Part shown: piece after piece, positions 5,841 through 18,439 of the stretch | Layout of the letters: every line of letters starts with the position of its first letter | How positions within the stretch are numbered: position 1 is the stretch's first letter | Source of the DNA: Octopus sinensis | Taxonomy: Eukaryota | DNA length: 64,000 nucleotides | Assembly (NCBI RefSeq): GCF_006345805.1 | Contig: NC_043010.1 | Location: 23,002,001-23,066,000, forward strand | Reading direction: 5' to 3' | Translations under genes and position numbers: made by a program | The notes under the pieces: generated by a model | The model's database searches: none | What the model saw: the letters and a program-made list of their open reading frames with translations, nothing else | What the model was told of the DNA's origin: nothing

Positions 5841-6465
5841 AGGCGGCCACCTGGGGGAATCGTTACCGTGCCGGATAAAATGCTAAGCTACATTTTGACT
5901 ATCATTATGTTCTGAGTTCAAATTAAGTCGACGGGACCACTTTGCTTTTTATCCTTTCGCGTTCGGTAAAATAAGTAACAGTTGATCCCTGAGGTCGATG
6001 TGATCGTCTTAAACCCTCCCTTAAATTGCAGGCCTTGTGCCAAAAATTGAAGCCAGTATCATTATCATTGTTGTAAGGCGGCGAGCTGGCAGAATTGTTA
6101 GCACGCTGGATGAAATGCTCGGTGGTATTTCGCCCATCGCTACATTCTGAGTTCAAATTCCGCCGAGGTTGGCTTTGTCTTTCATCTTTTCGGGGTCGAT
6201 AAATTAAGTACCAGTTTTGTATTGAGGTCGATCTAATCGAGTGGACCCCTCAACCAAAATTTCAGGCCTTGTGCCTTATAATAGAAAGAGTAAAATGCTA
6301 TGTAGCATTTCGTCCGTCTTTATGTTCTGAGTTCAAATTCCGTCAAAGTCCACTTTGTCATCCATCATTTCTGAGTCGATAAAATAAGTAAAAATTGAGC
6401 ACTGGACTCGATGTGAACGACTTAACCAATCCTCAAAATTGCTGGCCTTGAACTAAAATTTGAAG
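5841..6465 (+). mobile_element. SINE family B, three tandem copies
   Basis: Repeated GGCGGCGAGCTGGCAGAA..GTTAGC..TTCTGAGTTCAAATTCCGCCGAGG..GGGGTCGATAAATTAAGTACCAG units. Confidence 0.8.
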
Positions 6466-14029: not shown

Positions 14030-14512
14030 GTCAATAATAAAAGGGTAAAATTAATTAATTATCAATTAATTTTACCAAGTAGTGTTCAGTATGTAAAAAG
14101 ACCATTTACGGTATATTTAAAACATTATGTTATATACTTAGGGTTCAGTAAAATAATTTACTTTACCACACACCGAACTTTTAGAAATAGCAGCCAAAAA
14201 ATCTTAGCTATTTCCTCTACTATAAGAAAAGTCTCCCAGACAATGTATACTCAAAAATAATTCACGCAGGTATAGAGGGAAAAATAACGAAAGATCACAC
14301 GTACATCGATTACTTGAGAACGCCGTTTCTGGATTAGTTGGATATAGAGATCAACATTTCCGTCATCAGCCCAAGATTTCTTTAGGTTTGGATTTGAGAG
14401 CACTAAAAATCGACCATACCCGTCTGATATGAGTAATCCCAGACAAACCATCTTCGACCGCTAGTACTAATGAATTCAAAAAATAGAAATCTTGGGCTGA
14501 TGACGGAAATGT
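14030..14512 (-). mobile_element. Penelope-like element terminal (pLTR) remnant with a short inverted copy
   Basis: Carries a type I hammerhead on the minus strand; perfect 28-bp inverted repeat 14354-14381 / 14485-14512. Confidence 0.6.
14313..14375 (-). ncRNA. Type I hammerhead ribozyme (PLE-type, short stem III)
   Basis: Minus strand: CTTGGG-CTGATGA-CGGA..TCCA-GAAAC-GGC-GTT-CTCAAG; stem I CTTGGG/CTCAAG, intact core, C-A mismatch at the base of stem II. Confidence 0.7.
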
Positions 14513-14562
14513 GCAAGTTGTTTGCAAGACATCTAAGACCTTGTGGTAGGTAACCACTGACA

Positions 14563-14658
14563 AACCGGAAAGACGGTTAGGCATCTTGGAAAGACAAGAG
14601 GACTGCTCGGAAAGACCAGCGGACAATAGGAAAGACTATCGACACCAGGAAAGACTGG
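14563..14658 (+). repeat. Array of five stem-loops with invariant GGAAAGAC in the HERO 5' leader
   Basis: GGAAAGAC at 14567, 14588, 14609, 14629 and 14648, each flanked by a different complementary stem. Confidence 0.9.
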
Positions 14659-14783
14659 CGGAGGCTGCGGACTTACGATCCTCGCCTCTGTATTTTATTG
14701 TAACAGACATAACAGGAAATGACAGCCCCACGATTGACCGAGAGGGGGGAGTCTAGAATCAATCAAACCCAGTCAGCACGGAA

Positions 14784-17700
14784 ATGACCTCTGAAACGAA
14801 CATGATTATTCATTCGAACAGCGAACGAACTGCAAACAACTTTGGATGCAAGCTGGGCTATAGAACCTTTGCAACTGAGAGAGGTTTGAAGATACATCAG
14901 GGAAAGACTTGTGAGAAGAGGACAGAGCAGTGTGGATCGTCAGATCGTAAAACACGTGGCAAATCATCCCCGGACTCAAACCACAGCGGATCGATAAATG
15001 CTACAGCAGAGAACTCTTCACGTGAAGAAACTACAAGTCATGAAACTGGTGCATCAGATAATATTCAGAGGAAACCGAGGGTTTTGTGGCCTGCTGCTAA
15101 TGAGAAAGTGAAATATAAAGAGTTTGAAAACAAGGTTGTCGGGCTCTTTATAAAATGACAGGCTCTACAGTGAGAAACTGGGAAAATTATCAAGCTCAAT
15201 ATACGATAGGAAAAGATTTATTTGTGGAATAAAAGAGAATATCCGACTAGAGAAAGGAAAGTGTGGACCAAGCAGAGGGGATCAGAAAAATGCAGCAGTT
15301 GAGGAAGGAAAAGTCCGACTTAAGAAAGCGATGGAGATGTGCTGCCTAGAGATGAGAAACCTGGCCTTGCGTTGCTGTATAACGATTTGAAGAGGAAATG
15401 TCGTTATGTGCAACGACATATCCGCCGATATGAGCGTCGAAAAGAAAGTAAAAGGACTCGGAGGCAGTTTCTGAAGGACCCGTACGGGTTTACTAAGAAG
15501 CTGTTCACTGAACCGAAGAGTGGTACTTTATCGTGCACTAAAGAAGAATTGGATGCTCATATCAAGGAAACCTACAGCGATCCGCACCGTAATCAGCCGC
15601 TGCCACCTCTACATGGGCTAAATCATCTCTCAGGACCTGATATCTAATTCCAGATTGGGGACATCAGGGAGAGAGAGGTGAATGATTTCGTAAGAAAAGC
15701 TAGAGCAAAGAGTGCCCCAGGAGGTGATGGCGTCTCATATAAAGTCTACAAATACTGCAATCGTCTGCGAAAGAATCTCTTCGTCCTAATCCGACAACTG
15801 TGGCGCGAGGAGACTATAGTAGAGGATTGGTGTAAGGCAGAAGGTATATACCTGACGAAAGAGGCCAATGCAAAGACCATAAAACAGTTTAGGCCGATAT
15901 CCTTATTGAATGTGGAAAGCAAGATCATTATGGGAATTCTGTCGAGGAGAACAGTGACATATTTACAGAGTAACGGATATGTTGATGAATCTGTTCAAAA
16001 GGCCGGAATCCCCGGGATCCCTGGATGCGTTGAACGCTGTTTTTCGATTTGGAAAGAGATCCAGGATGCCAAACAGAACAAGAAAAGTCTGAACGTGGTA
16101 TGGCTCGACCTAGCTTACGCGTATGGTTCAGTGCCACACAAATTACTAATAACAGCCATGGACCACTTCCACATTCCTGACAAAGTGATCAAAATAATGA
16201 GGATGTACTATGAAAGTTTCGAAATGAGGTTTACAACTGGAAATTTTACAACAAATTGGCACCGATTGGAGGTTGGCATTGCTGCTGGCTGTACAATATC
16301 TGTCACGTGGTTTATCTTAGTCATGGAGTTGATTTTAAAAGGTGTAGATTTTTCGGAACAAATCGCCCATGTACAATCGCCTAAGAAAGCCTTCATGGAT
16401 GACGTGACACTTCTAGCTACAGATAAACAAATCATGCAGAATGCCCCCTTTTGAGATTAGACGAACTTGTAAGGTGGTCAAGGATGCGATTTAGAGCAAA
16501 AAAGTCGCGTAGTCTGACATTTGTTAAGGGAGTGCAGAAAGAATTTAAATTTCGAATATCTGAAGAAAGCATTCCAACAGTCAAGGAAGAGCCCGTCAAG
16601 AGCTTGGGACGAGTATACGCTGGAACATTGTCAGACAGAAGTCGTGGGATTGAAATTATGAAACAGGCCGAGGCTGGGTTATCAGCGATTGATGTTTCGA
16701 AGTTACCAGGTAAATATAAAATTTGGTGCTTGCAGTTCGGCTTGTACCCGCGACTTGCGTGGCCACTTGTAATATACGAAGTAGCATTGTCACGAGTTGA
16801 AAGGATTGAACAAAAATGTAATGTGTTCATTAGAAAGTGGCTAGGTCTACCTCGTATGTTGAACAGCTCAGCTCTTTATCGTAAAAGAGGTTCGTTGCAG
16901 TTACCAATAGCATCAATAGTCGAAATATATAAGTTGGGGAAGATACGGACGGTCATGATGCTGAGAGAATCGAAGGATATGGAAATTAGGCGTAATGCAC
17001 CAGAGGTGAAAACAGCCAGGAAGTGGAAAGCAGAAGCAGAAACTGACAACATCTTGTCTTCTCTTATACACGGAGATATGGTGGGAGCAATGCAGAACCA
17101 TCGGAAAGGATTTGGTTTTGGCGCAGATCAGTTCAGACCGTTTGCAAGCATGATACCGTGTGAACGCAGATCTGTTGTTAGCAACAGCGTCAAAACAAGA
17201 GAAGCAGAGAGAAGAGAGCTTCATTTGATCCGATGTGTTCATCAAGGTCAGATGACGAGATGGGAAGAACATGTTGTTGAGAGGAAGATAAGTTGGGATG
17301 AGATGTGGAAGTGGACGACATCTCGGCTGAGTTTCCTGATTCGTTCATCTTATGATGTTTTGCCATCACCTACGAATCTAGTAAGATGGAACGTCTTAGA
17401 GAATGACATCTGCAAATGTGGAAAAGTCGGTACACTAAAACATATTCTTTCCAACTGTTCATTAGCATTGAACAGGTACACATGGAGGCACAACTTGGTC
17501 CTTAAGGTTATCTTCAATGCTATAAAGAACCAAATTCATCTCAACAACACTGAGGAAAAATCGTTAAAAGTACCATCAAGAGAGTTCATTACCTGTGCGA
17601 CCAGGTCAGCAGATCCGTTTCAAGAAGAAGACCAAGAAACTTCCTGAGAAAAATGAAAAGTGGAAAGGCTATTGGGAGGTAACTGCAGATTTACCTGGGT

Positions 17701-18077
17701 GCCAGGTTTTCTTTCCCATCTCAGTTTCGAAAAAACCACATATTTTGATGTGGTGTGAAAGAAAGAAAGTTGTAAATATAGTCGAGCTAACGGTTCCTCA
17801 CGAAGATAATATGGACGCCGCTCGAGCTCGAAAATTAAACCGTTATGAAAAGCTCCTCGAGGAATGTGAAGACGCGGGCTGGAAAGCGGAACATTTTCCT
17901 ATCGAAGTCGGATGTAGAGGGTTTGTAGGACACAGCGTGAGACGACTGTTGTTATCGTTAGGCCTAACTCATCGTAAAGTCAATACCACCATGACTGATA
18001 TCCAATCTACAGTGGAGAAGGCTAGCCACTGGATTTGGTTAAAAAGAGACGATGAGCGATGGCTAGAAGTATATTGA
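14784..18077 (+). pseudogene. HERO polyprotein (Zn finger - RT - CCHC - REL) broken by frameshifts and a stop
   Basis: Pieces 14784-15158 (C..RTFATERGLKIHQGKTC), 15339-15647, 15678-16454 (SAPGGDG, FRPISLLN, WLDLAYAYGSV, AFMDD), 16451-17647 (VKSLGR, CKCGKVGTLKHILSNC, RYTWRHN), 17595-18077 (KPHILMW, VELTVPHE, RKLNRY, IEVGCRGF). In-frame TAA at 15645-15647; the REL PD appears as PH. Confidence 0.9.
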
Positions 18078-18118
18078 GTTCTTCATAACCAGCTGATCTA
18101 GCAAGCGGGGCTTCATAT

Positions 18119-18204
18119 CAGTGAGGGGGGCCGGTGCGTACTGATGCCGTCGAGAGGTAGGCCCCGAAACGGCGCGCATTCTCTCCTGATGACCCCATAC
18201 ACTG
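18119..18204 (+). ncRNA. Candidate permuted/pseudoknotted hammerhead ribozyme in the HERO 3' UTR
   Basis: GUC triplet (18149-18151), GAAA (18166-18169) and CUGAUGA (18186-18192), with stem I GAGAG/CTCTC and stem III GCCGT/ACGGC in exact hammerhead register but non-standard strand order. Confidence 0.7.
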
Positions 18205-18269
18205 GCTAGCTTCCGATATACGGAGCTTTTAACCGGTAGCACTTGCATGTGCAAGTTGTTTGCAAGACA

Positions 18270-18439
<170 letters not shown>

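What the first reader, a model, noticed from the sequence alone, without database searches (positions are those of the whole stretch)
18119..18204. Complete hammerhead core in a non-circularly permuted, pseudoknotted order in the HERO 3' UTR
Seen: stem III GCCGT (18146-18150) pairs with ACGGC (18169-18173) after GAA. The unpaired C18151 gives a GUC cleavage triplet. Stem I GAGAG (18152-18156) pairs with CTCTC (18181-18185), immediately followed by CTGATGA (18186-18192). The two usual stem II strands (GGCCCC before GAAA, CCCC after CTGATGA) cannot pair with each other, but both can pair with the upstream splint GGGGGGCC (18125-18132). Extra helices are GGTGCGT/GCGCATT (18133-18139/18174-18180) and CAGTG/CACTG (18119-18123/18200-18204). 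Established: type I/II/III hammerheads are circular permutations of the order NUH > CUGANGA > GAAA; here the order is NUH > GAAA > CUGANGA, which standard models would miss. Rearranged hammerheads have been reported, and from memory (unverified) fish HERO 3' UTRs have a similar layout, so novelty must be checked. Predicted cleavage is after 18151.
Basis: partly seen in the sequence, partly recalled or inferred. Interest (0 to 1): 0.9.

Follow-up and report, generated by a model that had tools for sequence, protein, structure and literature searches.

The report
Rewired hammerhead ribozyme in HERO retrotransposons
The tail of this jumping gene, and of many related elements, holds all the catalytic letters and paired stems of the self-cutting hammerhead RNA in a wiring that we did not find described; it is predicted to cut itself and likely lets the element copy from a circular RNA.

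Summary
The letters are confirmed at the stated places, in the 3' UTR of a dead copy of a HERO-like RLE LINE. The block order S-G-C matches the validated type-SGC hammerhead (Eckert 2023), but here stem II's partner strand lies upstream. A9 runs into an extra helix A that stacks on a hairpin B, so a four-way junction sits between A9 and G10.1. This is a further circular permutation of SGC that splits a block the authors assumed unsplittable. The strict layout is in 31 of 58 related loci (controls 0 of 352 and 0 of 2320). Every helix covaries, and the cleavage base is never G (0 of 42). The same fold occurs in a Naiad-type Penelope family, a group reported to lack canonical hammerheads. No copy starts or ends at the cut site. 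All 30 loci with the 5' end carry an upstream piece of the 3' end at one fixed junction, as expected from a circular or tandem template. Cleavage and circles are untested.

The parts
14509..14535 (+). 27-nt copy of the element's own 3' end in front of its 5' end (shortest kind of partial tandem); not a target-site duplication
   Evidence: identical to 18247-18273; other copies with unrelated flanks end in the same letters
14536..18273 (+). one unit of the HERO-like RLE LINE
   Evidence: 1998 first-look candidates in G000, top 40 at 97-100% identity; boundaries
14693..18077 (+). broken single ORF: N-terminal zinc finger, RT, CCHC knuckle, restriction-like endonuclease; several stops before 15650, frame changes near 16445 and 17590
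   Evidence: tblastn with P0013, 55-68% identity; RVT_1 E=1.6e-14; P0013's best PDB matches are R2 proteins
18098..18105 (+). outer closing helix, 5' strand; pairs with 18202-18209 (one mismatch in this copy)
18107..18110 (+). helix A, 5' strand; pairs with 18193-18196
   Evidence: 85% paired in cis vs 46% swapped when placed from stems II+B only
18111..18126 (+). hairpin B, 5-bp stem (C18112T gives a U-G wobble in this copy)
18127..18132 (+). stem II strand carrying G10.1 (18127); pairs with 18160-18165
   Evidence: 86% vs 57% paired when placed from A+B only; first pair G-C in 35 of 42
18133..18139 (+). helix X, 5' strand (stem I-II tertiary helix); pairs with 18174-18180
   Evidence: strong 5-bp helix in 88% cis vs 26% swapped
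18146..18156 (+). block S: stem III 5' strand, C17 (18151, predicted cut on its 3' side), stem I 5' strand
18157..18173 (+). 3-nt linker and block G: stem II strand ending in C11.1 (18165), G12-A13-A14, stem III 3' strand
18174..18192 (+). helix X 3' strand, stem I 3' strand, core C3-A9 (18186-18192)
18193..18209 (+). helix A 3' strand directly after A9, then the outer helix 3' strand
18210..18273 (+). rest of the 3' UTR; no poly(A); followed here by (TA)n
   Evidence: of 30 copies, 28 end at about 18269-18277 equivalents and 2 run on into a next unit

Best explanation
The 3' UTR holds a covarying hammerhead fold, predicted to self-cleave after C18151, that likely cuts more-than-unit transcripts into unit-length RNA which would then be ligated into a circle and copied into the genome. 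Shown by sequence comparison: core in S-G-C order; stems I, II, III and helix X; a two-helix arm (A on B) inserted between A9 and G10.1, with closing pairs and no spacer bases in 39 of 42 sequences. Inferred for the fold: helix II stacks on the core and stem III as in any hammerhead, and A stacks on B, so the active site is unchanged. Shown in the genome: insertions run through the cut site unbroken, and full-length copies carry more than one unit at a fixed junction. Inferred for the life cycle: a partial-tandem copy with two ribozymes is transcribed by read-through and cut twice; about 30 bp of helices hold the two ends together; a host RtcB-type ligase or the ribozyme seals them; the RT primes internally about 120 nt downstream of the seal on AT-rich targets and can run past one full turn. 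My odds: conserved hammerhead-type fold 0.92; self-cleaves 0.78; circle is the template, given cleavage, about 0.6.
For: Strict layout in 31 of 58 related loci, partial in 5; controls 0 of 352 and 0 of 2320. Cis vs swapped pairing in 42 sequences, each of I, III, II and A placed without using its own pairs: I 94/52%, III 94/70%, II 86/57%, A 85/46%; B 96/56% (fitted). On a sequence-only MAFFT alignment, 7 pairs of stems I and III are 95.6% paired vs 65.7% shuffled, with 88 double changes. Position 17, located from stems alone, is C 21, A 11, U 10, G 0, and never G in 30 clusters against 30% G in linkers, as the NUH rule requires. Position 7 takes all four bases. Four families in G000 share the fold with different letters. 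All 30 loci holding the 5' end (16 independent events) carry an upstream 3' piece of about 10-982 nt; 11 of 16 cross the cut site and none begins at it. The junction has no indel in the 28 of 30 loci read directly. The two 3' copies within one insertion share rare alleles in L296, L299 and L301. 8 of 58 outside loci have a next ORF start downstream on the same strand. The same circle model was proposed for Penelope elements (PMC4209133), and circles were shown for retrozymes (PMC7229834).
Against: No cleavage or circle data. Interrupting A9-10.1 breaks a feature of every classical hammerhead, and the geometry was not modelled. The core words were the search anchors, so their conservation is partly built in; the junction count comes from a best fit; sequences are related, so the P values are overstated. 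Nothing in the genome marks the cut site: 291 exact copies span it, and the 5 and 1 hits that could have started or ended there are point mutants. An uncleaved template predicts the same. In a Penelope element, hammerhead cleavage was not needed for insertion in vitro and unprocessed RNA was the main substrate (PMC11167929). The nested minimum-energy fold of this copy pairs the G-run with stem I and C3 instead (pseudoknots not modelled). Diagnostic alleles disagree between the two 3' copies at two sites in L300 and one site each in L310, L045 and L055. 6 of 58 loci lack the motif, one of them (L257) inside the motif-bearing group. Short-read contigs can collapse partial tandems.
Confidence: 0.5

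Rival explanations
1. The ribozyme is active but is not what makes the template. Uncut multi-unit transcripts are copied by internal priming, as in the Penelope element PAc. Cleavage serves to free a 5'-OH mRNA 160-300 nt before the next ORF for translation (as HDV-like ribozymes do for R2), or to destroy excess RNA.
For: No insertion end maps to the cut site. PAc precedent. In five tandem loci the cut lies 163-244 nt before the next ORF match. Translation role of ribozymes described in PMC13725137.
Against: No insertion with two whole units was seen among the 20 stretches fetched. Without such masters, a linear template can only shorten the upstream piece, yet young copies carry up to 982 nt. 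Deletion derivatives also regenerate partial tandems.
Confidence: 0.27
2. The fold descends from or mimics a hammerhead but no longer cleaves; it is a protein-binding 3' UTR structure that sets where reverse transcription starts.
For: Stem II is not contiguous with A9 (direct pairing possible in 3 of 42). RLE LINEs bind structured 3' UTRs (established for R2). Templates are intact across the site.
Against: G is avoided at 17 while 7 is free, and G10.1-C11.1 and A15.1-U16.1 are kept across RLE LINEs and a Naiad element whose proteins are unrelated. These are chemistry rules, not expected of a binding site.
Confidence: 0.15
3. Partial tandems come from RT template jumping onto a second linear RNA or from insertion targeted to the element's own 5' end; the ribozyme has an unrelated, regulatory role.
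For: Upstream pieces have lengths like ordinary 5'-truncated copies; template jumping by R2 RT is recalled, not read here; L055's upstream piece carries a different internal junction from its downstream unit.
Against: Insertion 3' ends vary over about 8 nt, whereas the internal junction shows no indel in 28 loci; rare alleles are shared within insertions.
Confidence: 0.08

Closest known systems
Type-SGC hammerhead / HRIMA-1 (Eckert et al. 2023, PMC10085705)
   Same: Order S-G-C; linker of about 3 nt from stem I to stem II; tertiary helix formed by the strand after stem II and the strand before stem I; full core.
   Different: In SGC, stem II and the tertiary strand follow CUGAnGA(U) directly. 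Here they are moved to the 5' end, and helices A and B occupy the place of the optional U. SGC was found only in metatranscriptomes, none in genomes of known organisms; its published search patterns require G after the core and would miss this.
Pseudoknot-containing hammerhead (Zhan et al. 2024, PMC11300833)
   Same: An extra helix and pseudoknot replace most of a conventional helix II while the active site is unchanged.
   Different: There A9 and G10.1-C11.1 remain the short stem of one loop; no four-way junction, different strand order.
Hammerheads in Penelope pseudo-LTRs (PMC4209133; PAc, PMC11167929; Naiads, PMC8557442)
   Same: Ribozyme in the spacer of partial-tandem retroelements with internal priming; circle model proposed.
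   Different: Those are type I, often minimal and dimeric; the host here is an RLE LINE. Naiads are reported to lack canonical hammerheads, yet family 4 carries this fold.
Non-LTR retrozymes (PMC7229834)
   Same: One ribozyme per unit, tandem copies, circles made by a host ligase.
   Different: Non-coding, 170-400 nt, type I; here a 3.7-kb coding element (family 3, 841 nt and non-coding, is closer).
HDV-like ribozymes of R2 and other LINEs
   Same: Self-cleaving RNA in an RLE-clade LINE.
   Different: Different ribozyme class, at the 5' end, and it defines the element's end; here no end maps to the cut site.

Membership tests
Hammerhead ribozyme | Core C3 U4 G5 A6 N7 G8 A9, G12 A13 A14, A15.1-U16.1 | tested here: met
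   Exact in the window; 40-42 of 42 at each fixed position, partly by anchoring
Hammerhead ribozyme | NUH cleavage triplet | tested here: met
   H17 C21 A11 U10 G0, located from stems only
Hammerhead ribozyme | Stems I, II, III with covariation and G10.1-C11.1 | tested here: met
Hammerhead ribozyme | [quoted passage not shown] | tested here: met
   helix X, 88% cis vs 26% swapped
Hammerhead ribozyme | 10.1 follows A9 directly or after 1-2 bases (classical types I-III) | tested here: not met
   base after A9 pairs with 11.1 in 3 of 42; a direct 4-bp stem II is possible in 4 of 42; no Rfam match over 18119-18204 at E<=5
Hammerhead ribozyme | Site-specific self-cleavage | not testable with these tools
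   no bench data; no raw RNA reads available
Type-SGC hammerhead | Block order S, G, C with short I-II linker and tertiary helix | tested here: met
   against text and SGC-1 oligos
Type-SGC hammerhead | Intact block C: stem II strand right after CUGAUGA(U)G | tested here: not met
   published descriptors
RLE-clade LINE | Single ORF with zinc finger, RT, CCHC knuckle, restriction-like endonuclease | tested here: met
   definition from PMC5678591
HERO clade | RT groups with Repbase HERO references | not testable with these tools
Naiad PLE (family 4) | C-terminal RT, CxC motif, DKA motif | tested here: met
   read by eye in L346 and in RT pieces of L345-L352; criteria; L345 reads DKG; Pfam RVT_1 weak, E=8.5e-4 in 1 of 3 pieces
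Naiad PLE (family 4) | N-terminal GIY-YIG endonuclease | tested here: inconclusive
   the 8 long copies fetched are 5'-truncated before it
Non-LTR retrozyme | Non-coding 170-400 nt tandem unit with type I hammerhead | tested here: not met
   coding 3.7-kb unit; family 3 is 841 nt with the split-C fold

The most novel reading that the evidence does not exclude
A new hammerhead permutation with a four-way junction inside the catalytic strand is a clade-wide part of HERO LINEs and also supplies the 'missing' ribozyme of some Naiad Penelope elements; it lets an autonomous, protein-coding RLE LINE replicate through a self-made circular RNA, as viroids and retrozymes do.
Probability: 0.4. Interest if true: 0.92.

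Novelty: new variant of a known kind. Interest (0 to 1): 0.82.

Why it matters
It would be a non-circularly permuted hammerhead in animal genomes; the founding paper found its SGC type only in metatranscriptomes. It would show that the core tolerates a whole two-helix arm, carrying both RNA ends, between A9 and G10.1, a new place to attach sensors or open the molecule. It gives a hidden ribozyme to a LINE clade and to a Naiad family, a group thought to lack hammerheads, and makes the open question of how partial-tandem retroelements arise (circle or uncut multimer) testable in an R2-like element. Standard Rfam models and the published SGC patterns miss it, so such motifs are probably undercounted.

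Tried and rejected
Rfam over 12-22 kb at E<=5: only microsatellite-driven hits, none on the motif. The 27-nt terminal repeat as a target-site duplication: rejected. Linear monomer beginning at the cut site: no 5' pile-up at 18152. Template ending at the cut site: 1 hit, a point mutant. Sequencing runs: no RNA holder listed; four contig sets laid showed no place where many molecules begin or end and cannot show RNA ends; no evidence either way. Viral contigs: no relative of the protein; 48 core-word matches, none with stem I. L113, a possible fifth family, is single-copy and decayed. The tree is the quick version only; the careful search did not finish. MAFFT misaligned the upstream helices, so one search covers only stems I and III. 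Literature: 10 searches of open-access PMC and bioRxiv listed no paper on this motif in HERO or Naiad elements; most hits were seen as listings only, and subscription journals, Repbase Reports and theses were not searched. Earlier findings: none matching by sequence, place or words, one adjacent.

Full report
1. Observation. The motif starts about 20-30 nt after the stop codon (18075-18077) of a broken ORF with RT, CCHC knuckle and restriction-like endonuclease motifs. Rfam gives no match on it. The 3' end has 1998 first-look candidates in G000, the top 40 at 97-100% identity.

2. Corrected fold. The 29 sister copies show that this copy has private changes: 18112, 18139, 18141 and 18204 carry the window's letter in 5, 1, 2 and 1 of the 68 family copies examined. 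The family instead supports an outer helix (18098-105 with 18202-09), helix A (18107-10 with 18193-96, directly after A9), hairpin B (18111-26), stem II (18127-32 with 18160-65, giving G10.1-C11.1), helix X, stem III and stem I. A, B, II and the core meet with no spacer bases, which is a four-way junction. Coaxial stacking of II on the core and of A on B is my inference from hammerhead geometry; it was not modelled.

3. Other families. Generic S-G-C patterns in G000 (114 matches vs 1 reversed control; 280 vs 173) revealed three more families with different letters and the same pairs. Family 2 lies 365-481 nt downstream of HERO-like ORF matches in four loci. Family 3 is an 841-nt non-coding unit (2151 candidates) with inverted 5' partial copies in 8 of 25 loci and direct ones in 7 of 25, a Penelope-like signature. 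Family 4 (1476 candidates) lies about 1 kb behind a C-terminal RT with CxC and DKA motifs, the Naiad criteria in PMC8557442. Individual copies are decayed: all helices intact in 28 of 30, 14 of 25 and 9 of 25 copies of families 1, 3 and 4.

4. Outside this genome. An alignment of C-terminal halves fetched 79 metagenome loci and 3 genome-collection loci; 58 reach the ORF end. The strict descriptor matched 31 fully and 5 partly. Of the 22 misses, 4 are cut off within 141 nt, 12 show the layout with mismatches, and 6 show nothing. Controls gave 0 of 352 ORF windows and 0 of 2320 shuffles. In a quick tree, motif-bearing loci interleave with named fish, amphioxus and Argonauta proteins; 5 of the 6 motif-less loci form one long separate branch, and L257 lies inside.

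5. Covariation. I used 42 sequences: 38 of the 58 (dropped: 4 cut short, 6 without motif, 3 without anchor, 5 near-duplicates, 2 cut after the core) and one copy of each G000 family. They form 30 clusters at 80%. With each helix placed from the others, cis vs swapped pairing was I 94/52%, III 94/70%, II 86/57%, A 85/46%; B (fitted) 96/56%; X 88/26%. The cleavage base placed from stem I alone and from stem III alone agreed in 39 of 42. On the sequence-only alignment, 7 pairs were 95.6% paired vs 65.7% shuffled. Position 17 was never G and position 7 was free. The base after A9 could pair with 11.1 in only 3 of 42. Caveats: the core words were anchors, and related sequences inflate counts.

6. 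Genomic footprint. All 30 loci with the 5' end, 16 independent events after merging one 14-locus and one 2-locus duplication, are preceded by the element's own 3' end, about 10 to 982 nt long; 11 of 16 cross the cut site and none starts at it. Six of seven older loci with the 5' end show the same. The junction has no indel in the 28 loci read directly. 291 exact copies span the site; the hits that could have begun (5) or ended (1) there are point mutants. The upstream and downstream 3' copies of one insertion mostly share subfamily alleles, and rare alleles in three insertions, with disagreements in four. Eight of 58 outside loci have a next ORF start downstream. The window copy has only 27 nt upstream and one ribozyme, so it could not itself yield a circle.

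7. Mechanism. The template is continuous across both the unit junction and the scissile bond. A motif that obeys the hammerhead's chemical rules across two unrelated retroelement classes most likely cleaves. The simplest way to have both is cut, ligate, copy around the circle. The main rival is an uncut multimer with internal priming, as shown in vitro for PAc, with cleavage serving translation or turnover. My data do not separate these.

8. Comparison and novelty. [quoted passage not shown] Their patterns need stem II right after the core, with an optional U. The SGC-1 oligos, read by eye, give the same connectivity as here except that stem II and the tertiary strand follow the core. The HERO form is therefore SGC opened at that U position. 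It works like a hammerhead by every testable feature but is not a member of types I-III or SGC. Ten searches listed no description (see Tried and rejected).

9. What I saw of each paper. PMC10085705: abstract, parts 2-5 of 8, most of the discussion, supplement part 1 and search passages. PMC11300833: parts 1-2 of 6. PMC8557442: passages and section 6. PMC7229834: abstract and passages. PMC4209133, PMC11167929, PMC3088659, PMC5678591, PMC7650587, PMC13725137, PMC10162972 and bioRxiv 10.64898/2026.07.22.740005: passages only; the preprint's supplements are closed and could bear on which elements carry which ribozymes. Figures were not visible. The name HERO, R2 3' UTR binding and R2 template jumping are recalled.

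10. Verdict. New variant of a known kind, clade-wide and strongly supported as a structure; catalysis and the circular intermediate are predictions. Interest 0.82.

Noticed in passing
L345-L352 (e.g. L346, motif at 5868), L186-L210: A Naiad-type Penelope family (CxC, DKA, C-terminal RT) carries the same split-core hammerhead about 1 kb after its ORF, although Naiads are reported to lack canonical hammerheads.
   Followed up: partly
L161-L185; tandem in L174/L180 (G000:C2:88.98 Mb): 841-nt non-coding repeat with the same ribozyme, two preferred 3' ends about 60 nt apart, and inverted or direct partial copies: a retrozyme-like element probably moved by a Penelope-like partner.
   Followed up: partly
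L033, L035, L038, L045, L055, L056, L307, L309, L313: Internally deleted derivatives of the HERO-like element (5' 260-820 nt joined to 3' 300-630 nt), each still in partial tandem; candidate non-autonomous families.
   Followed up: partly
window 14356-14382 and 14486-14511: Perfect inverted repeats of about 26 nt bounding a 155-nt MITE-like element directly in front of the LINE copy; they contain CTGATGA by chance.
   Followed up: no
L216, L255, L253: Variant cores with U at position 3 (L253 also G8A) in otherwise intact folds; natural variants or decayed copies.
   Followed up: no
L291-L293: HERO-like ORFs on short contigs of three bacterial genome records, probably animal DNA contamination; L293 has a complete motif.
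   Followed up: no
G000:C18:3.78-5.16 Mb and unplaced contigs (L039-L060, 14 loci): One truncated insertion amplified many times inside a larger duplicated segment; several copies have lost part of hairpin B and stem II.
   Followed up: no
window 18123-18130 with 18181-18187: A competing helix that would sequester stem I and C3 in the nested fold of this copy; a possible off-state.
   Followed up: no
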